Below the pieces are notes generated by a model, which worked only from the letters and a program-made list of their open reading frames with translations, made no database searches and had not been told where the DNA came from. Positions 2,337 through 60,848 of a stretch of DNA of 64,000 bases are shown here, in pieces. The stretch is from an uncultured Candidatus Saccharibacteria bacterium. Lineage in GTDB: Bacteria; Patescibacteriota; Minisyncoccia; Sungbacterales; JACQCQ01. The stretch is from assembly GCA_964494945.1 (NCBI GenBank), contig CAZBTX010000003.1, positions 47,897-111,896 of the forward strand. Direction: 5' to 3'. Numbering within the stretch: position 1 is the stretch's first letter; the number at the start of each line of letters is the position of its first letter. A program made the translations under genes and the position numbers.

Positions 2337-4334
2337 TTAGAGCAAACGCACCAAAAGCAAAGCCACTATATTCACTATTTTTATCATGGGGTTTATAGCG
2401 GGGCCTGCTGTGTCTTTATAGGGGTCGCCGACGGTGTCCCCAGTAACGGCCGCTTGATGGGCGGGGGATTTCTTGCCGCCGTAATTGCCTTCTTCAATAT
2501 ATTTTTTGGCGTTGTCCCAAGCGGCTCCTCCGGCCGTCATGGAGAGCGCCACAAAAAGCCCCGTAAGTAGCGAACCGATTAGAACTCCGCCCAGCGCTTC
2601 AGCGGCGTGCCCGCGGAAAATTATAACTATCAATATGGGAATTACGACGGGTATGAGCGCGGGAATTATCATTTCGCGAATGGCGGCTTTAGTCACGATG
2701 TCCACAGCCCTTCTGTAATCGGGCTTGGCCGTACCCTCCAGAATGCCTTTTATCTCGCGAAACTGGGCCCTGACTTCTTCCACGACTTCACCCGCGGCTT
2801 TGCCGACAGCCCGCATGGCGATGGAAGCAAAAAGATAGGGCATCATGCCTCCGACAAAAAGCCCCGCCAGCAAATACGGATTGGAAAGATCAAAGACCGC
2901 GAAGTTGCCGAAACTTTTTAACTCTTCGGCGTATGAGGCAAAAAGCACAAGTGCCGCAAGTCCGGCGGAGGCAATGGCATAACCTTTGGTAATGGCTTTA
3001 GTGGTATTGCCGACGGCGTCCAGCGGGTCGGTAACGGCGCGTACCGAATCAGAAAGGCCGGCCATTTCGGCAATCCCACCGGCGTTATCCGTAATGGGGC
3101 CGAAAGAATCAATCGCGACAATAATGCCGGCGAGCGATAACATGGCGACTCCCGCAACGGCAATGCCGTAAAGTCCGAAAATAAGGTAAGCCGTTATCAT
3201 GCCTCCCGCGATCACCAGTACCGGGAAGGCCGTGGCCTCCATGGACATGGCAAGTCCCATTATCATATTGGTTCCGTGCCCCGTGGTAGATGAACGCGCG
3301 ATATTTTTAACCGGCCTGAATTTTTTAGAAGTGTAATATTCGGTGGCCAACATCATAAGCGCTGTTACAAAAAATCCGACAAGCCCCGCAAAAAACGCGC
3401 GAGTCGCGTCTCCGCCCATGAAAAATGATTTTGTTATGGGATAGAGAAATATGGCCGCGAGCGCCGAAGAAGCTATCAAACCACGATACATACCTCCCAT
3501 GATTGAGCCGCCCTCTTTAACTCTCACGGCGAAATTTCCGAGAATGGAAGCGACAATGGAGGCGGCACCGATTGATAGCGGGAAAAGTATCATTTTTTCA
3601 TTGCCGGGGAATATAAGAGACCCAAGAAGCATCGCGGCAATCGTGGTAACGGCATAGGTCTCAAAAAGGTCCGCCGCCATGCCTGAAACGTCGCCCACAT
3701 TGTCGCCCGTCGCATCAGCAATAACAGCCGGATTTCGGGGGTCGTCCTCCGGAATACCCGCTTCAATTTTTCCCACGAGGTCCGCGCCCACATCCGCTCC
3801 TTTGGTGAAAATCCCGCCCCCGAGGCGCGCAAATACCGAGATCAGTGAGCCGCCGAAGCCAAGACCTATAAGAGCTGAAATATCATTGAAAATAAAATAA
3901 AAAAGCGAAACGGAAAGAAGTGCCAGTCCCACCACTAAAAATCCCGTAACCGAGCCGCCTTGATAAGCAACCTTAAATGCCCTAGACAGTCCGTTTTTCG
4001 CCGCTTCGGCTACTCGCGTATTGGCATCAACCGCCGTCATCATGCCGAGATACCCGGCGAGGCCCGAAGCAAAAGCGCCGATCAAGAATCCGAGCGCGGT
4101 TTTCCCGCCAATGGCGTACCAAATGATGACGGCGAGGACGATGGCAACCCAGAGCACCGTGATATTTTGGCGTTTCAAATAGGCCTTGGAGCCCTCGCGG
4201 ATGGCATTAGCGATCTCTATCATTTTGGCCTCGCCCCTGGGATACTTCTTCAATCGGTACATGGTGGATATCGCAAAAGCGATTGAACCAAAAGCGACAA
4301 TAATTGGAGCAAACAAAGAAAATGAAGCGAACAT
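2337..4334 (-). CDS. hppA: Membrane-bound proton-translocating pyrophosphatase (H+-PPase)
   Basis: 665-aa polytopic protein with characteristic H+-PPase motifs (GGG(I/L)FTK, DNVGDNVGD-like '[20 protein letters not shown]', C-terminal [11 protein letters not shown]). Confidence 0.9.
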
Positions 4335-4353: not shown

Positions 4354-4427
4354 CCCCCACACCAGAACGTGGGCTTATAGTATTTGCTTGATTGCTTTCG
4401 GCAATCTGCCCACGTTTGGTGTGGGGG
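4354..4427. mobile_element. MITE-like inverted-repeat element, copy 1. Arms CCCCCACACCAGAACGTGGGC (4354-4374) and GCCCACGTTTGGTGTGGGGG (4408-4427) with a 33-bp interior. The right arm lies inside the last codons of nusA and the interior contains the nusA stop.
   Basis: Near-perfect 20-bp inverted repeat seen directly. Same terminal motif as elements at 11835-11931, 20336-20651 and 59998-60095. Confidence 0.6.
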
Positions 4428-5766: not shown

Positions 5767-5773
5767 TTTCTTT

Positions 5774-5854
5774 AGCCACTAGCGACTAGAAACTAGTCAC
5801 TAGGAATTTTTATCTTCCGCTGCGGCTAGTCGCTAGGAACTAGTGGCTAGTCGC
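5774..5854. repeat. CTAG-rich palindromic repeats (AGCCACTAGCGACTAG, ACTAGTCACTAGG, GGCTAGTCGCTAGG, ACTAGTGGCTAGTCGC) in the nusA upstream region. The same 12-mer CTAGTGGCTAGT recurs at 21014-21025.
   Basis: Seen directly; motifs are reverse complements of one another (CTAGCGACTAG / CTAGTCGCTAG). Confidence 0.6.
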
Positions 5855-6120
5855 TTATTAAGAGCAAAGACCCGTTCTCACGGGTCCTACTTGGTTGCCA
5901 TATTGGCAGTACAATTTTCATTGTAGCACGTGGCTTGACCTCGTCAAGTGCGACTCCGGGGAATACCATGGAGTTTAGCCGTATCCCCAAGTTGGGGAGC
6001 GTAAGATCAGCGCTTTTTGTGATATTATTTAGACAAACACTATTAAATTCAAAAATCAAAGGTCAAAAGTCAAAATGATTGTAGCGCTGAAAGCGCTTCC
6101 TAAATTTTGACTTTTGCATT

Positions 6121-11753: not shown

Positions 11754-11834
11754 TTTTAAAAGTCAAATTGATTTTCTCCGCGGTTCCCGATACAATTCCG
11801 TCTGCATTTGTATCCCTCCCCGTAGTTCAACTTG

Positions 11835-11931
11835 CCCCCACACCAATCCCCTCGTAGCTCAATGGACAGAGCAGCGCTCTTCTAAGGCGTTGATGAGGGT
11901 TCGATTCCTTCCGAGGGGATTGGTGTGGGGG
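11835..11931. mobile_element. MITE-like inverted-repeat element, copy 2, enclosing tRNA-Arg(TCT). Arms CCCCCACACCAATCCCCTCG / CGAGGGGATTGGTGTGGGGG are a perfect 20-bp pair whose innermost 7 bp form the tRNA acceptor stem.
   Basis: Seen directly; same CCCCCACACCA terminus as the other copies. Confidence 0.6.
11848..11919 (+). tRNA. tRNA-Arg (anticodon TCT); begins with a C1-G72 pair; no encoded CCA
   Basis: Manual cloverleaf: acceptor CCCCTCG/CGAGGGG, U8, D-arm GCTC-AATGGACA-GAGC, anticodon loop CTTCTAA, T-arm GAGGG-TTCGATT-CCTTC. Confidence 0.7.
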
Positions 11932-11946
11932 TGAAGACAGAACTCC

Positions 11947-11990
11947 GGACTTCTAAGCTCTTGATCGAGGTTCGATTCCTCGCGAGGGGA
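11947..11990 (+). pseudogene. Partial duplicate of a tRNA 3' half (anticodon loop TTCTAAG, T-arm CGAGGTTCGATTCCTCG, acceptor CGAGGGGA)
   Basis: Aligns with the 3' half of the tRNA at 11848-11919, with substitutions; no matching 5' half. Confidence 0.5.
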
Positions 11991-15041: not shown

Positions 15042-15114
15042 CTATGTTCAAGCATTATTTCCGCCCATTGGGTTTCACCCCGTTAGAAATTTCTAAAATG
15101 TGCTGTTTAGTATC

Positions 15115-15681
15115 ATGAGGTTTTATCCCAGGAAAGAAAACCACATTTCCTCACCAGCTCTTGCGGGATTTCTAACGGGGTTCACGCTTATTGAGATCAT
15201 GGTCTATGTTGCCATCTTGGCGGTAATTTCGGCGTTCCTTTTGCAGACGCTCATTTCTTTTTCGGCGGTCTACCGCAAAGTCCAGGCGGAACGCGATGTG
15301 CTGGCCAATGCCCGCGGCGCCATGGAAACGCTGGGTCTGGAAATCCGCGGCGCTAAGAATGTTTATACTCCCACATCCGCTCTCTCGGCGACCACAAGCC
15401 AACTGTCGCTCGCAACTTCACTAAGTTCTAATGTGAACGAGGCGTTAACGTACGTTGATTTCTACGTTGATAATAAGCGCTTGTATTCAAAGCGCGAAGG
15501 CGCCGCAGCTTCTCCCATAACTTCGGAGAACGTGGAAGTCGCTGAATTTTTAGTGGAGCGCGTAACGGCTGGAACACGCGAATCAGCGCGGATAACGCTG
15601 ACACTCACTTCCGCGCTTCGCGGCCCGTTCCAGGCCTCCTCAACCATTACCGCCGCTTTTACGCCCAGAGGCAATTACTAA
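15115..15681 (+). CDS. Pseudopilin/minor pilin (motif ...LTG|FTLIEIMVYVAILAVI)
   Basis: ATG at 15115 in frame; prepilin motif G-FTLIE. Confidence 0.7.
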   Translation: MRFYPRKENHISSPALAGFLTGFTLIEIMVYVAILAVISAFLLQTLISFSAVYRKVQAERDVLANARGAMETLGLEIRGAKNVYTPTSALSATTSQLSLATSLSSNVNEALTYVDFYVDNKRLYSKREGAAASPITSENVEVAEFLVERVTAGTRESARITLTLTSALRGPFQASSTITAAFTPRGNY

Positions 15682-17032: not shown

Positions 17033-17118
17033 TCCCGCCAGAAGTCACGATCGCAAAATATAGATTAGAAACATATTAACTTCTTCAATTTAAGATTCTA
17101 TAAGGCATGAACGCGTTT

Positions 17119-17141
17119 GATCGCGATCTGCTTCTAACGGG
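17119..17141 (+). promoter_or_regulatory. 23-nt leader motif GATCGCGATCTGCTTCTAACGGG (contains palindrome GATCGCGATC) immediately before an ATG. A second copy at 22479-22501 precedes the DUF457 gene; an inverted variant lies at 22392-22414.
   Basis: Exact 23-nt repeat seen at two loci, each ending 0 nt before an ATG. Confidence 0.5.
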
Positions 17142-17189
17142 ATGAATTTCTACCAAGAGGTCTATAAGTGGGTAAGAAAAATTCTTTGA
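17142..17189 (+). pseudogene. Truncated paralog of the alkyltransferase-like gene (MNFYQEVYKWVRKIL*), a 15-codon remnant
   Basis: Its first 12 residues are near-identical to the N-terminus of the 18673..19008 product (MNFYEEVYKWVCKV...), then a stop. Confidence 0.6.
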
Positions 17190-20328: not shown

Positions 20329-20335
20329 GCCATTT

Positions 20336-20651
20336 ACCCCCACACCAAAACGCTTAGGCGGAGATAGATTCTTTTATCCTTTTTAATAATTGCTGTAAAG
20401 CGTGAGCGCGGAGTTTTAAGTTTTTCTCTCTGTACCTTGCCTCTTTCTCACTAGAGTACGCTTCGTAGTATACCAGTTTTAGTGGTTTCCGAAATTTAGT
20501 GGAAAATACCGCCCCAGAATTATGTAAAAGGATTCTTTTCTTTAGGTTATTCGTTGAGCCTATATAAAGCTTTTTGTCTTTTAGGCTTTTTAGGATGTAA
20601 ACAAAGAACATAGATAAATTTTAGCATATTTAAGCGTCTTGGTGTGGGGGT
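20336..20651. mobile_element. Inverted-repeat-bounded element enclosing a GIY-YIG nuclease gene. Arms ACCCCCACACCAAAACGC (20336-20353) and GCGTCTTGGTGTGGGGGT (20634-20651), 17/18 complementary. Same terminus family as 4354-4427, 11835-11931 and 59998-60095.
   Basis: Seen directly; the gene occupies the interior exactly (stop 1 nt from the left arm, start 22 nt from the right arm). Confidence 0.6.
20354..20611 (-). CDS. GIY-YIG nuclease family protein (COG2827 / YhbQ-like, 85 aa)
   Basis: 'FFVYILKSLKDKKLYIGSTNNLKKRILLHNSG...LVYYEAYSSEKEARYREKNLK' shows the GIY-(10)-YIG, Arg, His/Asn and Glu core motifs. Confidence 0.8.
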   Translation of the reverse strand: MFFVYILKSLKDKKLYIGSTNNLKKRILLHNSGAVFSTKFRKPLKLVYYEAYSSEKEARYREKNLKLRAHALQQLLKRIKESISA

Positions 20652-20678
20652 AAACTTGCTTTTTTCAACTTTTGCGTT

Positions 20679-20942: not shown

Positions 20943-21002
20943 GATAGAGCCGGAAAGAATTACAATTCTTTCCAAGATTCTTTGGTTGTGTAAAAATTAT
21001 TT

Positions 21003-21030
21003 AGCGACTAGCGACTAGTGGCTAGTTACT
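21003..21030. repeat. Second locus of the CTAG-rich repeat (AGCGACTAGCGACTAGTGGCTAGTTACT), about 25 bp upstream of tRNA-His
   Basis: Shares exact 12-mer CTAGTGGCTAGT and AGCGACTAG units with 5774-5854. Confidence 0.6.
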
Positions 21031-21051
21031 AATTCCTATGAACTAGAATAT

Positions 21052-22205: not shown

Positions 22206-22501
22206 CTGCCGCCTCCTTGTGGGTGGGGTAGCTGCGTCAGTAAAATAACAATAGATTCAGTTATTGTCAACTCAAGGATTTTTCTGATAGCATTGATTAG
22301 TATGCCGAAGCATTCCGTAGTGGGATTTAAAAATGAAATCTATAATTGGCATTTTCCGCCGCTTCCTTAGTCCTTAATTCTTACTGAATGGATCCCGTTA
22401 GAAGCCGCGATCGCGAAAGAAATTTAAAGAATAAATTATGGCATTATTAAGAGATTATTATAAGCAGAAAGCGACTCTGATCGCGATCTGCTTCTAACGG
22501 G

Positions 22502-23059
22502 ATGGATATTTTCGCGCACGCGCTCTGGTCGGGCGCTGTCTACAACAAAAAACGAGTGGGCTGGGCGATTTTTTTCGGCATAGCGCCGGATTTATTTTCT
22601 TTCGGCATTCTGATAGTCCTGCATCTTGCCGTAAACGGTTTTGTACCCATCGCCTTCAATCACGGCGACATCCCGCGACCGGAATTTGTGCCGCCGTTTG
22701 TATATTCTCTTTATAACTTCTCACACAGCTTGGTCGTCTGGGCAGTACTATTTGCCATCGGCTGGCTTTATTTCAAGCGACTGCCGTGGGAATTCACGGC
22801 TTGGGCCGTCCACATTTTAATTGATGTCCCCACGCATTCAGCCGCCTTTTTCCCCACTCCGTTCCTTTGGCCCCTGCCCCAACCCTTTTTCATAAACGGC
22901 ATTTCCTGGGCCACGCCCTGGTTCATGGCGGTCAATTACGGCGCCATAATCCTGATTTACGGTTATCTTTACTCCGTACACCGGAGGCGAATCAAAAATC
23001 TCGGCGGAGTCCCGCCTGGCCGGCAGGCAGGCGACACTTTGCGGAACACAACGCCCTGA
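22502..23059 (+). CDS. Membrane-bound metal-dependent hydrolase-like protein (DUF457/YdjM-like)
   Basis: 'MDIFAHALWSGAV...' N-terminus and His-rich TM core typical of the YdjM/DUF457 family. Confidence 0.55.
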   Translation: MDIFAHALWSGAVYNKKRVGWAIFFGIAPDLFSFGILIVLHLAVNGFVPIAFNHGDIPRPEFVPPFVYSLYNFSHSLVVWAVLFAIGWLYFKRLPWEFTAWAVHILIDVPTHSAAFFPTPFLWPLPQPFFINGISWATPWFMAVNYGAIILIYGYLYSVHRRRIKNLGGVPPGRQAGDTLRNTTP

Positions 23060-44248: not shown

Positions 44249-44716
44249 TTACTTCACCTTGTAGAACTTCCCCTCCCACGTCACCTTCCGGAGCTCGCCG
44301 GTTCCTCGCAGCATGCCGCCGAAAGTGGGAGAGTACTCCAAATCCCACTTGATCGTGCTCTCCGTTCCACCCTCGAGCTTGAGCTTGAGCTTCTTGTAGT
44401 CGGCGTCGAGGAACGCGGTACCGCTCATGGGGATGTTTCTGTTGCGGTTTGTGTACTGCAGATCGACGTTACCGGCGTCGTCGATCCTCTCCACCACGAA
44501 GATGGTGGGATTCATGCCGTCGTCGTACTTCCACTTGCCGAGGAGCGGCCGGAACTTCTCCGGGGTCTCGGAGGTGGACGCCTTCACAGCATCCTTGGGG
44601 GCACCCTCCTGCGCGACGACCGGGGCCTGCTGGGCCGCGGTGATGGTCGTGAACGTGAACACGTTCACGAGCGCGAACAGCGCGATGATGGGAGTGATAG
44701 CGGTGAGGTTCTTCAT
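44249..44716 (-). CDS. Secreted protein A, 155 aa, high-GC (about 64%), signal peptide MKNLTAITPIIALFALVNVFTFTTITAAQQAPVVAQ
   Basis: GGGAGAAGACC then ATG; classic n-h-c signal peptide; unknown mature domain. Confidence 0.6.
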   Translation of the reverse strand: MKNLTAITPIIALFALVNVFTFTTITAAQQAPVVAQEGAPKDAVKASTSETPEKFRPLLGKWKYDDGMNPTIFVVERIDDAGNVDLQYTNRNRNIPMSGTAFLDADYKKLKLKLEGGTESTIKWDLEYSPTFGGMLRGTGELRKVTWEGKFYKVK

Positions 44717-44741: not shown

Positions 44742-45089
44742 CTATGTCCCACCACCCTTGACGATCTTGCGGGTCATCTCGTCAACCCCATCGGTTGAAT
44801 CCGGGCTGACGGCGACGCATCTGTGAGTTGCCCAGTCGTACTTCCCGTCCTCCGTGCCGCAGAGGGCGTCCAGGGCCCAGTCGATCCACGTCTCTTCCGG
44901 CTTGGCGCTGTCAAAGCGCGGCCAGTTGGCTGGTGCTGGCGCGAGCACACTGCCGCTACGAGACGTTTCTCCCCCCTGCGCGACGACCGGGGCCTGCTGG
45001 GCCACGGCGGGACTCGTGAACGTGAACACGTTCACGAAGACGAGCGCGAGAACCGTGATGATGGGAAAGAGCGGACGCTTCGTGGTCAT
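44742..45089 (-). CDS. Secreted protein B, 115 aa, high-GC, signal peptide nearly identical to protein A (…VLALVFVNVFTFTSPAVAQQAPVVAQ); unrelated mature domain
   Basis: GGGAGGTTCCGCA then ATG; about 60 nt of near-identical DNA shared with gene A across the signal-peptide region. Confidence 0.6.
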   Translation of the reverse strand: MTTKRPLFPIITVLALVFVNVFTFTSPAVAQQAPVVAQGGETSRSGSVLAPAPANWPRFDSAKPEETWIDWALDALCGTEDGKYDWATHRCVAVSPDSTDGVDEMTRKIVKGGGT

Positions 45090-53210: not shown

Positions 53211-53264
53211 ATGCCCGAAAACGAACGTCCTAAAATTGGAATAGGTATAATCGTCGTTCGAATA

Positions 53265-53286
53265 GGACAATTCCATAGAATTGTCC
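53265..53286. promoter_or_regulatory. Palindromic operator-like site GGACAATTC-CATAG-GAATTGTCC, copy 1 of a 4-member family. Just downstream of a TATAAT box and upstream of the high-GC gene 53435..54148.
   Basis: 9-5-9 perfect inverted repeat. It and about 30 bp to its right are about 90% identical to copy 2 at 54267-54288. Confidence 0.55.
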
Positions 53287-53328
53287 TATGTTCGTGCTTT
53301 TTCCAAAATTAGCCACCGCGAAAACTTT

Positions 53329-54148: not shown

Positions 54149-54266
54149 CCGTAACGACTTCGGAGATGGAGAGCCATCTCGTCTTACCACAGCCACCCTC
54201 GCCGATGGCAACAGTGCCAACGGCGAGGGTCTCCCATCCCAAAAATCTCCGGTACATGTTCCCATA

Positions 54267-54288
54267 GAACAATTCCATAGAATTGTCC
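54267..54288. promoter_or_regulatory. Palindromic site GAACAATTC-CATAG-GAATTGTCC, copy 2, about 35 bp upstream of the GNAT start
   Basis: Core ACAATTC-CATAG-GAATTGT identical to the other copies. Confidence 0.55.
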
Positions 54289-54321
54289 TATGTTCGCACT
54301 TTTTTCAAAATTGGCCACCAT

Positions 54322-56566: not shown

Positions 56567-56677
56567 GCCGCATCCATCCCCGGACCAAGTCCCGCGGGGC
56601 TGGGGTTTGAAACACTGCTCCCCGAAAACTGTTTATATACAATATTAATAATTAATAGGGCGTGCCGGCGAAGAAAT

Positions 56678-56710
56678 AGTCATTGAACAATTCCATAGAA
56701 TTGTCCTATG
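56678..56710. promoter_or_regulatory. Palindromic site copy 3 (TAGTCATTGAACAATTC-CATAG-GAATTGTCCTATGA) upstream of the ArsR-family gene, near a TATAAT box
   Basis: Shares left arm with copy 4 and right arm with copies 1/2. Confidence 0.55.
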
Positions 56711-56794
56711 ATACAATGATATACAGATACCTATAATAATAGAAGAGACCTCCTGGTTACTAGATTACCAACAGAACAAACATACAGAACAAAC

Positions 56795-57061
56795 ATGAAA
56801 AGGTGGACAGTGGTTTTTAGAGCCCTGGCAAATATAAACCGGCTTAAGATAATTAAGATGCTCTCCAACGGCCGAAAGATGAGCGTTACCGAGATCGCGG
56901 AAGATATCGGCATTTCCTTCAAGGCAACCTCAAACCATTTGGCGTTGTTGAAGAATTTAGACGTCGTAGAGGCGCGGGGGGCCTTGGGCCATGTTTTCTA
57001 TTCTTTTAATCGGCAACTGCCCAAAGATTTCCAAAAAACAATTGAGATCGCCCTGAAATAG
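56795..57061 (+). CDS. ArsR/SmtB-family transcriptional regulator (no metal-binding Cys motifs)
   Basis: HTH '...MSVTEIAEDIGISFKATSNHLALLKNLDVVEAR...'. Confidence 0.75.
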   Translation: MKRWTVVFRALANINRLKIIKMLSNGRKMSVTEIAEDIGISFKATSNHLALLKNLDVVEARGALGHVFYSFNRQLPKDFQKTIEIALK

Positions 57062-57096
57062 TCATTGAACAATTCCATAGAATTGTTCAATGACTA
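57059..57096. promoter_or_regulatory. Palindromic site copy 4 (TAGTCATTGAACAATTC-CATAG-GAATTGTTCAATGACTA, 17-bp perfect arms). Begins with the ArsR stop codon and is followed by TTTTCTG, so it may double as a terminator hairpin.
   Basis: Contains TGAACA...TGTTCA half-sites typical of ArsR/SmtB-family operators. Confidence 0.55.
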
Positions 57097-57138
57097 TTTT
57101 CTGAAATTCTAATTTCAAAATAGTAAAAATATGAAAAA

Positions 57139-59849: not shown

Positions 59850-59915
59850 GCCTTCTATTTTGGAGGTCTGCCCATGCGCCTTGCCGGCGTGTTGGTAGAA
59901 AAAGGTCGTTTGTGT

Positions 59916-59957
59916 AATAAACAATCCCCGCCCTTTAAAGGGCGGGGATTGTTTATT
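59916..59957. terminator. 42-bp perfect palindrome (AATAAACAATCCCCGCCCTTT|AAAGGGCGGGGATTGTTTATT) after the sigma/anti-sigma pair
   Basis: Seen directly. Confidence 0.6.
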
Positions 59958-59997
59958 GAAAAAAGCGGTTTTTAGTGCTAGATTTGGTTTTGTTTTA

Positions 59998-60095
59998 CCC
60001 CCACACCAGAAAGCTCCACCCCTCAGGGCGGAGATGAATGGAGTTATGAAATAGGTCATTAGAAATGCCGTGTCCCTTAGGGCGTGGTGTGGGGG
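59998..60095. mobile_element. MITE-like inverted-repeat element, copy 4 (CCCCCACACCAG ... TGGTGTGGGGG, interior about 75 bp sharing GGCGGAGAT with copy 3), abutting the tRNA-Ser fragment
   Basis: Same termini as the other three copies. Confidence 0.55.
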
Positions 60096-60102
60096 TTTAC
60101 TG

Positions 60103-60263
60103 GGAGGGTTGGCTCGAGTGGGTCAAAAGCCAAGGTCTTGGCTTTTGACGGGAAATTAGCGCAGATTTATCGGAGCGTATAATTTCCCGGGGTTTCGCTG
60201 GCGAGACGCGAGAGCTTCCGCAATAGCGGAGCTCCCGTCTTAGGGAAGCGAAACAAGGCGCCG
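60103..60263 (+). pseudogene. Disrupted tRNA-Ser copy: 19-nt 5' end (GGAGGGTTGGCTCGAGTGG) and a later internal piece (AAGGCGCCGCACTCG) separated by about 125 bp of hairpin-rich insert
   Basis: Both pieces are identical to the corresponding parts of the intact tRNA at 60425-60512. Confidence 0.55.
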
Positions 60264-60424
60264 CACTCGCCCCGCACTAAAAATTTGGAAGCGTGCCAGA
60301 GTGGGCAAAATCTGAATGTTTTCAGGTTTTGCCGGAAAATAGTGTAAATTTATTGAAACGTAATTTTCCGTGGGTTTCGCCGGGGGGCGAAACAATGGGC
60401 GAGAGGTCTCGTCCCGCACTAAGC

Positions 60425-60512
60425 GGAGGGTTGGCTCGAGTGGACTAAGGCGCCGCACTCGAAATGCGGTTGGGGAGAAATCCCCTCAGAGGTTCGAATC
60501 CTCTACCCTCCG
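60425..60512 (+). tRNA. tRNA-Ser (anticodon CGA), class II with long variable arm. Flanked by a perfect 12-bp inverted repeat (CCCGCACTAAGC / GCTTAGTGCGGG) that extends the acceptor stem.
   Basis: Acceptor GGAGGGT/ACCCTCC, anticodon loop CTCGAAA, variable stem GGGGA-GAAA-TCCCC, T-arm AGAGG-TTCGAAT-CCTCT. Confidence 0.75.
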
Positions 60513-60599
60513 CTTAGTGCGGGATTGCGATTTGTTCCTGAAAATTTGCCCCGTAAATTTGTCAGACAAATCGGGAAAAAACCGTTATACCGGAAACGG

Positions 60600-60708
60600 T
60601 ATCGGAGGTTCGAATCCTCCCGCTTCCGTAGTCAAATTTTAGTGCGGGGTAAAAAATGCGGTTGGGGAGCAATCCTCTCGCAGGTTCGAATCCTGCACCC
60701 TCCGCAAG
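60600..60708 (+). pseudogene. Two further partial tRNA 3' halves: 60600-60632 (T-arm GGAGGTTCGAATCCTCC plus acceptor 3') and 60655-60708 (variable arm, T-arm GCAGGTTCGAATCCTGC, ACCCTCCG)
   Basis: The second aligns base-for-base with the 3' half of tRNA-Ser(CGA), with compensatory changes. Confidence 0.55.
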
Positions 60709-60848
60709 TCAGGATTTTGCAAATGGACAAAGGAAGCCTCGCGGCGCGAGACGCGCCGCTCGGCTAGGATTTGAAAGGGCTTTTTGTGCGAAAACGAAAA
60801 GGATTTATCGATGAAGGGCGAAAGAAATTTTTTCATATTAAAATAATC

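What the first reader, a model, noticed from the sequence alone, without database searches (positions are those of the whole stretch)
20336..20651. GIY-YIG nuclease gene bounded by 18-bp terminal inverted repeats, with gene-less copies of the same repeat elsewhere
Four elements share the termini CCCCCACACCA...TGGTGTGGGGG:
- 4354-4427: 74 bp, overlapping the nusA stop codon.
- 11835-11931: encloses an intact tRNA-Arg(TCT).
- 20336-20651: encloses an 85-aa COG2827-type GIY-YIG nuclease gene that fills the interior exactly, immediately upstream of hisS.
- 59998-60095: abuts a tRNA-Ser fragment.

Copies 3 and 4 also share an internal GGCGGAGAT box next to the left arm.

This is the architecture of an autonomous element plus non-autonomous MITE derivatives. 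The only candidate mobility protein is a GIY-YIG nuclease, not a DDE, HUH, serine or tyrosine transposase. GIY-YIG enzymes are known as homing endonucleases and in the Penelope-like retroelement endonuclease domain, but not as the sole protein of a TIR-bounded bacterial element. If these elements are mobile, the mechanism would be unusual.
Basis: partly seen in the sequence, partly recalled or inferred. Interest (0 to 1): 0.8.

Follow-up and report, generated by a model that had tools for sequence, protein, structure and literature searches.

The report
Tiny GIY-YIG transposon and miniature copies
A 314-bp unit bounded by inverted repeats and encoding only an 85-residue GIY-YIG nuclease, together with gene-less miniature copies, belongs to a widespread and apparently undescribed family of mobile palindromic DNA in ultra-small (CPR) bacteria that inserts with a 4-bp duplication, often in frame inside genes and sometimes into tRNA genes.

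Summary
CCCCCACACCA occurs 8 times as four inward-facing pairs (0.44 expected). One pair encloses an intact 85-aa GIY-YIG gene.

The MITE reading is supported:
- Close GIY-YIG homologues in Woesebacteria, Buchananbacteria, Omnitrophota and others sit at unrelated loci inside the same inverted-repeat core.
- A divergent GIY-YIG carries a different repeat.
- A metagenome scan found at least 120 contigs with small copies.
- 57 of 126 small copies have an exact 4-bp target duplication (9.6 expected). The target is T-N-N-A.
- Four to five of nine gene-bearing copies show the same duplication.
- Sungbacteria relatives have empty sites for element 1 and for the tRNA-Arg element.
- No pair of termini encloses anything larger than the GIY-YIG gene.

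New findings:
- About one fifth of small copies are read through in frame inside real genes, for example leucyl-tRNA synthetase. This resembles Rickettsia palindromic elements.
- Cassettes carrying a tRNA sit inside resident tRNA genes with the same anticodon.

Caveats: nothing shows that the nuclease performs the transposition. The hisS copy is old, orthologous and under strong purifying selection. The literature searches found no description of these elements.

Verdict: a candidate new class of transposable element, of high interest.

The parts
20337..20650 (-). Gene-bearing element (314 bp), CCCCCACACCA...TGGTGTGGGGG. The flanking 4-mers are TTTA / TAAA.
   Evidence: (I16)
20333..20356 (.). 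Inverted-repeat arm next to the 3' end of the GIY-YIG ORF. It contains the stop codon.
   Evidence: I16: 24 nt, 96% complementary
20631..20654 (.). Inverted-repeat arm upstream of the GIY-YIG start codon.
   Evidence: I16
20354..20611 (-). 85-aa GIY-YIG nuclease gene of the UPF0213/Slx1-like branch.
   Evidence: Pfam PF01541 E=2.9e-17. Invariant Y5 Y16 G18 R26 H30 E62. AlphaFold2 pLDDT 96.3. Nearest structures are 1zg2 and Slx1.
4354..4427 (.). Gene-less 74-bp element at the 3' end of nusA. It has an 11-bp outer stem, a 1-nt bulge, an inner stem and a small hairpin. It supplies the last 17 codons and the stop of nusA.
   Evidence: It is absent from the same junction in three relatives.
11835..11931 (+). 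97-bp cassette in which the repeat arms abut an intact tRNA-Arg(TCT) at 11847-11920, giving a 20-bp perfect stem.
11816..11834 (+). 5' fragment of the resident tRNA-Arg(TCT) gene, now decayed, split in its D-loop by the cassette.
   Evidence: The intact orthologue is at L146 3398-3470.
11932..11990 (+). 3' fragment of the resident tRNA-Arg(TCT) gene. The anticodon stem is broken.
   Evidence: D3, 76% to the cargo tRNA
59998..60095 (.). Gene-less 98-bp element with flanking TTTA / TTTA, a direct 4-bp duplication. It shares the ATCTCCGCC box with the 3' end of the GIY-YIG ORF.
15078..15180 (.). Element of a second repeat family (CCCCGTTAGAAAT...ATTTCTAACGGGG) with flanking TTCA / TTCA. It is placed exactly at the Gly|Phe-Thr-Leu-Ile-Glu site of a prepilin gene.
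22393..22502 (.). Second-family element (TCCCGTTAGAAGC...GCTTCTAACGGGA) with flanking TGGA / TGGA.
17034..17142 (.). Second-family element (TCCCGCCAGAAG...CTTCTAACGGGA).
   Evidence: (D14)
60270..60649 (+). Third repeat family (CCCCGCACTAAAA...TTTTAGTGCGGGG). The cassette lies in the anticodon loop of a tRNA-Ser(CGA) gene and carries a further, degenerate tRNA.
60412..60524 (+). Innermost cassette (TCCCGCACTAAGC...GCTTAGTGCGGGA) carrying the intact tRNA-Ser(CGA) at 60425-60513.

Best explanation
The four repeats are copies of a DNA transposable-element family with conserved termini 5'-CCCCCACACCA...TGGTGTGGGGG-3'. The family inserts at Y-N-N-R targets, mostly T-N-N-A and best G|TNNA|C, and duplicates 4 bp.

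The 314-bp copy upstream of hisS is the gene-bearing form. Its only product is an 85-aa Slx1/UPF0213-type GIY-YIG nuclease. The others are miniature forms: a hairpin-only copy, a tRNA-carrying cassette, and a possible deletion derivative.

Shown here:
- The family is mobile DNA.
- The GIY-YIG gene and the termini travel as one unit.
- A different GIY-YIG subfamily has different termini.
- The termini contain no stop codon in any frame, and the G-run plus the duplication can rebuild what lay downstream (a tRNA 5' end, or a Gly-Phe-Thr prepilin site).
- Copies survive inside genes as in-frame translated inserts and inside RNA genes.

Inferred, not shown:
- The nuclease, probably as a dimer, recognises the paired termini as a hairpin or cruciform base carrying the conserved 9-11 bp.
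- It makes the 4-nt staggered break at the palindromic target.
- Host polymerase and ligase finish the job.
For: Association of the GIY-YIG gene with the repeat:
- The same core flanks homologues of 60-77% identity at unrelated loci. These are rmuC-adjacent in Woesebacteria, upstream of groES in Buchananbacteria, upstream of Wzy_C, between pstA and pstB in Omnitrophota, downstream of ftsH, and in a tRNA-Ser gene.
- With up to 1 mismatch, the only long pairs of termini in 766 kb of metagenome loci plus the window are the GIY-YIG units of 304 and 314 bp.
- A 39%-identical GIY-YIG in L146 is bounded by a different 20-bp perfect repeat, ACCCGCCCAAATTTTTTGAA. A small copy of that repeat family sits in a 16S rRNA gene.
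- Within one genome, the subterminal sequence of the gene-bearing and small copies matches: window elements 1 and 3, and L137.

Mobility:
- At least 120 metagenome contigs carry small copies.
- 57 of 126 have an exact 4-bp direct repeat. Shuffling gives a mean of 9.6 and a maximum of 19 in 2000. The length is exactly 4.
- The target profile is T .86 / C .14 at position 1 and A .86 / G .14 at position 4.
- Gene-bearing copies have duplications TTGA (L137), TAAA (L151), CGTG (L153) and CACA (L156).
- Tandem and nested copies occur.
- Empty sites: the nusA / H+-PPase junction in three relatives, and an intact tRNA-Arg(TCT) at the syntenic site in L146.
- A second repeat family shows the same signature, 13 of 33 against 1.1 expected.

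Nuclease:
- The catalytic residues are invariant.
- pN is 0.16-0.17 while pS is 0.73-0.76.
- The fold is nearest UPF0213 and the structure-specific Slx1.

Tolerance of insertion:
- 21 of 113 copies are read through in frame, and 18 of those 21 have (length+4) divisible by 3.
- Overall 62 of 126 have (length+4) divisible by 3, p=1.7e-4.
- The host proteins are real: LeuRS, Dak2/DegV, GT4, peptidase U32 and ComEC.
Against: - No GIY-YIG enzyme is known to carry out strand transfer, and an 85-aa catalytic domain has no separate DNA-binding module.
- A simple cut-and-religate model is contradicted. Near-identical 74-bp copies carry different duplications (TTTA, TCTA, TTGA).
- Five of nine gene-bearing loci show no direct duplication, including the window copy (TTTA / TAAA).
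- The hisS copy is orthologous in a second Sungbacteria genome. It is 77% identical in protein, against 65% for HisS, and synonymous sites are saturated. This looks like a host-selected gene rather than a decaying parasite.
- Only about 1.15 Mb of sequence was inspected, so a conventional transposase elsewhere in these genomes is not excluded.
- The sample of small copies was chosen by exact termini and by size (72-102 bp).
Confidence: 0.55

Rival explanations
1. The repeats are ordinary MITEs moved in trans by a conventional transposase encoded elsewhere, for example an IS family with 4-bp duplications. The GIY-YIG gene is a passenger, or a homing-endonuclease-like gene that settled in the loop of such MITEs.
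For: TIRs plus a 4-bp duplication are the signature of DDE transposition. GIY-YIG chemistry is hydrolytic (established knowledge). Small copies carry unrelated cargo such as hairpins and tRNAs.
Against: No pair of termini encloses anything but GIY-YIG in about 830 kb. No transposase was called next to any of the GIY-YIG loci, apart from an unrelated serine recombinase at L153. A different GIY-YIG subfamily is bounded just as exactly by a different repeat, which a passenger model must explain twice. The target is TNNA, not the YTAR of IS5-type elements (ISfinder knowledge from memory).
Confidence: 0.2
2. The GIY-YIG protein is a host-serving or domesticated structure-specific nuclease that processes the hairpins or cruciforms formed by these palindromes, in the way SbcCD or Slx1 act. 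Its gene lies inside a copy for regulation or by history. Mobility is due to something else or is extinct.
For: Strong purifying selection and orthologous retention at hisS and in the pst operon, while the repeats there drift. The fold is nearest Slx1. UPF0213 genes are single-copy chromosomal genes in many bacteria (knowledge from memory, not tested).
Against: The gene plus repeats sits at many unrelated loci with its own 4-bp duplications, so the unit itself has transposed repeatedly. In the window-L002 pair the repeat core stays conserved although synonymous sites are saturated.
Confidence: 0.15
3. The repeat acts only at the RNA level, as a processing stem or intron-like feature (RNase III site, IVS-like excision), or is a static REP-like structural palindrome. 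On this view it is not mobile DNA.
For: The arms form 11-24-bp perfect stems with strong predicted stability, z -3.5 to -8.8. The inner parts of the arms differ between copies yet stay complementary. Copies occur in tRNA and 16S rRNA genes. CPR rRNA genes are known to hold non-intron insertions, some with GIY-YIG ORFs (PMC11270868).
Against: 4-bp duplications of variable sequence, empty sites and nested copies all require insertion of DNA. Copies are depleted from ORF interiors, 11/98 against 303/490 for random positions. Those inside ORFs are in frame and free of stops, so they are translated, not spliced. There was no Rfam match. RNA processing may still be what makes insertions in RNA genes tolerable.
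Confidence: 0.05

Closest known systems
Rickettsia palindromic elements (RPEs)
   Same: Short palindromic repeats that spread within a reduced genome. They are often found in frame inside protein-coding genes, where they are translated, and also in RNA genes. No transposase is known (review PMC10969869). Here 21 of 113 copies are read through in frame, including one in LeuRS.
   Different: There is no sequence relationship, and the host lineages differ (CPR, Omnitrophota). These elements have a clear 4-bp duplication and a gene-bearing form with a GIY-YIG nuclease. RPEs have no associated protein.
Bacterial MITEs derived from IS elements (e.g. Correia/NEMIS, IS5-type MITEs)
   Same: Terminal inverted repeats, fixed-length target-site duplication, high copy number, insertion polymorphism, nested copies.
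   Different: The partner element encodes no DDE, HUH, serine or tyrosine transposase, only a GIY-YIG nuclease. At about 300-315 bp it is far smaller than any IS, which are 0.7 kb or more (from memory). The inner arms vary while staying complementary, which suggests a hairpin requirement.
GIY-YIG homing endonucleases (I-TevI; free-standing Seg proteins of T4, SegB in the tRNA gene cluster)
   Same: GIY-YIG catalytic domain in a selfish element, with a recurring link to tRNA genes.
   Different: Homing enzymes carry long DNA-binding extensions. They cut one cognate empty allele and spread by recombinational repair, with no inverted repeats and no target duplication (PMC1564403). Here the protein is the bare 85-aa domain, sites are many and unrelated, and a 4-bp duplication is made.
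Slx1 / bacterial UPF0213 (YhbQ, BH0048) structure-specific nucleases
   Same: Closest in sequence and fold: 1zg2 at E=2.4e-4 by sequence, and Slx1 with TM 0.55-0.66 normalised to the query. Slx1 cuts branched DNA, which would fit recognition of a hairpin or cruciform base.
   Different: Slx1 has a RING domain and needs Slx4. UPF0213 genes are not known to be bounded by repeats or to be mobile.
Non-intron insertions with GIY-YIG ORFs in CPR rRNA genes
   Same: The same lineages and the same protein family. [quoted passage not shown] A repeat-bounded 187-nt insertion in a 16S gene was seen here.
   Different: In the passages retrieved, that paper does not use the terms 'inverted repeat' or 'palindrom' (0 occurrences). 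The passages mention no target duplication, no miniature copies and no insertion outside rRNA genes.
REP elements and their RAYT (Y1 HUH) transposases
   Same: Palindromic repeats spread in trans by a single small domesticated gene that is itself flanked by the repeats.
   Different: The enzyme family differs. REPs make no target duplication and are extragenic.

Membership tests
GIY-YIG nuclease superfamily | GIY...YIG motifs with catalytic Tyr, Tyr, Gly, Arg, His and Glu | tested here: met
   PF01541 at E=2.9e-17. Y5, Y16, G18, R26, H30 and E62 are invariant in 20 and in 29 sequences.
GIY-YIG nuclease superfamily | Alpha/beta fold with a three-stranded sheet | tested here: met
   AlphaFold2 pLDDT 96.3, with strands 2-9, 15-20 and 44-52 and helices 23-32 and 55-84. 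Matches are 1zg2, Slx1, I-TevI and UvrC.
Slx1/UPF0213 branch | Closest relatives are UPF0213/Slx1 rather than the I-TevI/UvrC branch | tested here: met
   The only PDB sequence hit is 1zg2 UPF0213. The top fold hits are 1zg2 and Slx1, and I-TevI comes only at E=0.36.
Slx1/UPF0213 branch | Structure-specific cleavage of branched DNA | not testable with these tools
   Needs biochemistry.
GIY-YIG homing endonuclease | Extended DNA-binding region (NUMOD, zinc finger or HTH) attached to the catalytic domain | tested here: not met
   The protein is 85 aa, and PF01541 is the only family above its curated Pfam cut-off; PF10544 T5orf172 scores below cut-off over the same stretch, so no separate DNA-binding domain is detected. 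The NCBIfam group I intron endonuclease model scores 24 bits against a cut-off of 56.
GIY-YIG homing endonuclease | A single cognate target allele, with spread by repair and no target duplication | tested here: not met
   The loci are unrelated, with 4-bp duplications TTGA, TAAA, CGTG and CACA.
TIR transposon / MITE | Terminal inverted repeats shared by all copies | tested here: met
TIR transposon / MITE | Target-site duplication of fixed length | tested here: met
   57 of 126 exact 4-bp duplications against 9.6 expected. Counts are 57 for n=4 and 2 for n=5.
TIR transposon / MITE | Insertion polymorphism (empty sites) | tested here: met
   In-silico excision restores an 871-aa LeuRS ORF.
TIR transposon / MITE | Autonomous partner encoding a recognised transposase (DDE, HUH, Ser, Tyr, Cas1) | tested here: not met
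   Only GIY-YIG lies between the termini, and Pfam finds no transposase domain in it.
Rickettsia palindromic element-like | Palindromic repeat inserted in frame in ORFs and translated | tested here: met
   Translation is inferred from open frames and was not measured.
Rickettsia palindromic element-like | Sequence homology to RPE families | not tested
   No RPE sequences were compared. Homology is not expected.
REP/RAYT | Associated Y1 HUH transposase | tested here: not met
   The enclosed ORF is GIY-YIG.
Group I / group II intron or other curated RNA family | Match to an Rfam covariance model | tested here: not met
   Only tRNAs reach the gathering threshold in the window. Nothing credible appears at 59900-60800 with permissive settings.

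The most novel reading that the evidence does not exclude
A bare 85-aa GIY-YIG nuclease is the transposase of a new class of DNA transposon, and at about 300 bp the smallest autonomous transposable element known. It would recognise its own ends as a hairpin or cruciform and make 4-nt staggered breaks at G|TNNA|C. The termini would have been shaped so that insertions stay harmless: stop-free in all frames, and able to rebuild tRNA 5' ends and prepilin cleavage sites. Derivatives that carry a tRNA would invade and replace the resident tRNA gene with the same anticodon, making themselves indispensable.
Probability: 0.4. Interest if true: 0.95.

Novelty: categorically new. Interest (0 to 1): 0.85.

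Why it matters
If the GIY-YIG protein moves these elements, it adds a sixth enzyme class to the known transposases (DDE/RNase H-like, HUH, serine, tyrosine, Cas1). It would also define the smallest self-contained transposon.

It would explain the uncharacterised non-intron insertions, some with GIY-YIG ORFs, reported in CPR rRNA genes. It would offer the first candidate enzyme for the class of in-frame palindromic selfish DNA known from Rickettsia, whose means of mobility is unknown.

It bears on the annotation of CPR genomes. These elements lengthen proteins, create GIY-YIG-prepilin fusion ORFs, split tRNA genes and fragment rRNA genes.

A compact nuclease that recognises a defined hairpin and a 6-bp target could also be of technical interest.

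Tried and rejected
Searches that led nowhere:
It returned only four distant loci (26-48% identity) without the element.
- Viral contigs: the DNA pattern gave nothing. The protein search gave only three 19-residue matches (68% identity, E about 5e-5) in ~170-kb viral contigs, which were not followed up.
- Rfam: no family matches any of the elements.
- Literature: nine of ten full-text searches (GIY-YIG with TIR, MITE, transposase, Patescibacteria, pilin; the motif itself; UPF0213/COG2827/YhbQ; RPE) found no description of these elements.

Ideas rejected or left weak:
- Element 4 as an internal deletion of element 3. Only the termini and one 9-mer align. Weak, not claimed.
- A restriction-and-religation model, in which the element carries its 4-nt overhangs. 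Rejected because near-identical copies have different duplications.
- A spliced-intron model. Rejected on the duplications, the depletion from ORFs, and the in-frame stop-free copies.
- A functional split tRNA-Arg. Rejected, because no in-silico splice gives a valid tRNA and the anticodon stem is broken. The orthologue in L146 is intact.
- A consistent 4-bp duplication for the tRNA-carrying cassettes. Not found. They have CTTG / TGAA flanks in two unrelated hosts, and this is unexplained.
- Looking for identical GIY-YIG proteins in different contexts as a sign of recent jumps. P0022 and P0024 each occupy a single locus.
- Other copies of the tRNA D-loop inserts. None were found in the 1.15 Mb held.
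Full report
**1. The observation**

The 11-mer CCCCCACACCA occurs eight times in the window. All are exact and they form four inward-facing pairs, at 4354/4427, 11835/11931, 20337/20650 and 59998/60095. Dinucleotide shuffles predict 0.44 occurrences.

Around the third pair the repeat extends to 24 nt with one mismatch, at 20333-20356 / 20631-20654 (I16). This pair encloses an 85-codon ORF on the minus strand, 20354-20611. The ORF matches Pfam GIY-YIG at E=2.9e-17 and is followed on the same strand by hisS.

The second pair abuts an intact tRNA-Arg(TCT) and extends its acceptor stem to 20 perfect base pairs. The first pair is a 74-bp hairpin that supplies the last 17 codons of nusA. The gene downstream of nusA is an H+-pyrophosphatase.

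The window matches a Candidatus Sungbacteria (CPR) metagenome-assembled genome.

**2. The nuclease gene and the repeat travel together**

Homologues of 60-77% identity were traced to their contigs. Each one lies inside the same repeat core, and the loci are unrelated:

- Woesebacteria, next to rmuC: ACCCCCACACCAATT...AATTGGTGTGGGGGT.
- Buchananbacteria, upstream of groES: TTCACCCCCACACTTAACTTTTTA and its complement.
- A third lineage, upstream of a Wzy_C gene.
- Omnitrophota, between pstA and pstB.
- A contig downstream of ftsH.
- One copy inside a tRNA-Ser gene.

In every case the nuclease gene points toward, and directly precedes, the next gene.

The inner part of the arms differs from copy to copy but stays complementary. 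In Sungbacteria, GACGCTTA/TAAGCGTT in the window corresponds to AAGGCTTA/TAAGCCTT in L002.

Allowing one mismatch to the 11-mer, the only long pairs of termini are GIY-YIG units of 304 and 314 bp. This covers 766 kb of metagenome loci plus the window.

A second, 39%-identical GIY-YIG lies just upstream of nusA in the L002 genome. It is absent from that position in the window. It is bounded by a different perfect 20-bp repeat, ACCCGCCCAAATTTTTTGAA.

**3. It is mobile DNA**

After removing duplicates, 57 of 126 elements are flanked by an exact 4-bp direct repeat. Shuffling the flanks gives a mean of 9.6 and a maximum of 19 in 2000 trials. The repeat is exactly four bases long.

The duplicated site is Y-N-N-R. 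Position 1 is T in 86% of cases, position 4 is A in 86%, with G favoured before the site and C after it.

Gene-bearing copies show the same signature: TTGA in L137, TAAA in L151, CGTG in L153 and CACA in L156. In L137 the nuclease element and a 72-bp element sit in tandem and share TTGA. Elements nested within elements also occur. L119 is an internally deleted nuclease gene.

Relatives provide empty sites. Three Sungbacteria contigs, with NusA 77-82% identical, lack element 1 at the nusA / H+-PPase junction. The L002 genome has an uninterrupted tRNA-Arg(TCT) at the syntenic place of element 2.

A second repeat family is present three times in the window (CCCCGTTAGAA...). It shows the same 4-bp TNNA duplication in 13 of 33 copies against 1.1 expected.

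**4. How insertions are tolerated**

After in-silico excision, only 11 of 98 sites lie well inside an ORF, against 303 of 490 random positions. Yet 21 of 113 elements are read through by an ORF with at least 50 codons on each side. In 18 of those 21, element length plus 4 is a multiple of three. Over all copies the figure is 62 of 126 (p=1.7e-4).

The hosts are genuine proteins: leucyl-tRNA synthetase, a Dak2/DegV protein, a GT4 glycosyltransferase, a U32 peptidase and ComEC. In LeuRS the insert is 26 residues, DPHTKR...YGVGV. By inspection, neither 11-mer contains a stop codon in any frame.

The terminal G-run plus the duplication can also rebuild what lay downstream of the site:
- The 5' acceptor strand of a tRNA in L153 and L156.
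- The Gly|Phe-Thr-Leu-Ile-Glu site of prepilins. Seven element ends are followed directly by this motif, against a background of 4.7e-5 per position.

Eight of ten long homologues tested are GIY-YIG fused in frame to a prepilin N-terminus.

This behaviour is closest to that of the Rickettsia palindromic elements (PMC10969869).

**5. The protein**

Y5, Y16, G18, R26, H30 and E62 are invariant. The AlphaFold2 model is confident, with pLDDT 96.3. It shows the GIY-YIG sheet plus a 30-residue C-terminal helix.

The nearest solved structures are UPF0213 BH0048 and the nuclease domain of Slx1, a structure-specific enzyme. I-TevI and UvrC are more distant.

The family comprises 744 clusters at E<=1e-10 in the representative library.

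**6. Mechanism**

That the family is mobile DNA, and that the nuclease gene and the termini move as one unit, rests on the evidence above. That the nuclease does the moving is inference.

My reading rests on three observations:
- The 9-11 terminal base pairs are conserved across phyla.
- The inner arms vary but remain complementary.
- The enzyme's relatives cut branched DNA.

I therefore think the enzyme recognises the paired ends as a hairpin or cruciform base. It would also make the 4-nt staggered break at the palindromic G|TNNA|C target, and host enzymes would fill and seal.

A plain restriction-and-religation scheme is excluded, because near-identical copies carry different duplications.

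Against the simple parasite picture stands the age of the hisS copy. It is orthologous in two genomes. Its protein is 77% identical, against 65% for HisS, and pN is 0.17 while pS is saturated at 0.76. The pst-operon copy behaves the same way while its repeats drift. Selection therefore maintains the gene at fixed loci, and domestication or a host-useful role cannot be dismissed.

**7. tRNA cassettes (unexplained)**

Element 2 carries a tRNA-Arg(TCT) and sits in the D-loop of the resident tRNA-Arg(TCT). The resident gene has since lost its anticodon stem.

In L043 and L049 a cassette with tRNA-Met(CAT) sits in the T-loop of a resident tRNA-Met(CAT). The two hosts differ by five compensatory pairs, and the two cargos differ by one base.

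In the window a tRNA-Ser(CGA) cassette of a third repeat family lies inside a degenerate tRNA. That tRNA in turn lies in the anticodon loop of another tRNA-Ser(CGA), which is valid once its inserts are removed.

In the Arg and Met cases host and cargo share the anticodon, and in the Ser nest the inner and outer tRNAs are both CGA while the middle tRNA's anticodon is undetermined. The first-family cassettes have CTTG / TGAA flanks rather than a duplication. Replacement of an essential single-copy tRNA gene by the invader, perhaps spread by homing-like repair, would explain this. I could not test it.

**8. Comparison and novelty**

The elements meet the defining features of TIR/TSD transposons, except that there is no recognised transposase. 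They do not meet the features of GIY-YIG homing endonucleases: there is no DNA-binding extension, the sites are many, and a duplication is made.

Nine full-text searches found no description of these elements. The nearest report is a paper on CPR rRNA-gene insertions. It notes GIY-YIG ORFs in insertions that are not introns and do not look like homing elements, and the passages retrieved mention no repeats or duplications (PMC11270868). A repeat-bounded insertion in a 16S gene was seen here.

I rate the finding as a candidate new class of transposable element. Confidence that the family is mobile and nuclease-associated is about 0.9. Confidence that the nuclease is the mobilising enzyme is about 0.55.

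Noticed in passing
window 60103-60705: Nested tRNA genes. A tRNA-Ser(CGA), valid by ARAGORN once two inserts are removed, holds in its anticodon loop a repeat-bounded cassette with a degenerate second tRNA. That tRNA in turn holds a cassette with the intact tRNA-Ser(CGA) at 60425-60513.
   Followed up: partly
window 60122-60254 and 60305-60393: Two related structured inserts, 133 and 89 nt, lie at the same D-loop position (after GAGTGG) of the outer and middle tRNAs. Both fold into the same three-hairpin architecture with compensatory changes (z -6.9 and -5.4). They have no Rfam match and no other copy in the 1.15 Mb held.
   Followed up: partly
window 15078-15180, 17034-17142, 22393-22502; many metagenome loci: A second family of small palindromic elements (CCCCGTTAGAA...TTCTAACGGGG) also makes 4-bp TNNA duplications, in 13 of 33 copies. 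No cognate protein was identified.
   Followed up: partly
P0252, P0255, P0266, P0268, P0272, P0285, P0286, P0352; L035, L053, L054, L057, L092, L106; window 15181: Elements insert exactly at the Gly|Phe-Thr-Leu-Ile-Glu cleavage site of prepilin genes. Many database ORFs are GIY-YIG fused in frame to a prepilin N-terminus. Whether prepilin peptidase would then release the nuclease is unknown.
   Followed up: partly
L146 9696-9994 (same genome as L002): A divergent GIY-YIG gene (39% identical) just upstream of nusA is bounded by a different perfect 20-bp inverted repeat (ACCCGCCCAAATTTTTTGAA). It is absent from that site in the window.
   Followed up: yes
L058 802-988 (minus strand, inside a 16S rRNA gene): A 187-nt insertion bounded by CCCGCCCAAA...TTTGGGCGGG interrupts a CPR 16S rRNA gene between the 1100 and 1392 regions. 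It is the same repeat family as the second GIY-YIG of L146.
   Followed up: partly
L049 about 2100-2500: Outside the host tRNA-Met that carries the tRNA-Met cassette lie decayed halves of a further cargo-type tRNA plus a repeat arm. This is an A[B[A]B]A nesting, just upstream of an rRNA operon.
   Followed up: no
L090 about 780-1200: A distant GIY-YIG (41% identical) lies between a duplicated 14-nt tRNA 5' fragment and the complete tRNA gene. It lacks the CCCCCACACCA termini.
   Followed up: no
window 53253-53291, 54255-54293, 56673-56711, 57055-57099: Four copies of a 39-nt palindromic motif (GAACAATTCCATAGAATTGTCCTATG) occur in intergenic positions. It may be an operator or another repeat family.
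   Followed up: no
window 5768-5867 and 20997-21042: Repeated CTAGCGACTAG / CTAGTGGCTAG motifs occur upstream of nusA and upstream of tRNA-His. A similar motif follows nusA in L148.
   Followed up: no
window 44604-44693 and 44971-45066: A 67-nt direct repeat at 90% identity, containing GTGAACGTGAACACGTTCACGA palindromes, lies in a locally GC-rich stretch.
   Followed up: no
window 2337-4334 (-): The 665-aa gene after nusA is an H+-pyrophosphatase (PF03030 in the orthologues), not infB. This nusA / H+-PPase order is conserved in the Sungbacteria relatives.
   Followed up: yes
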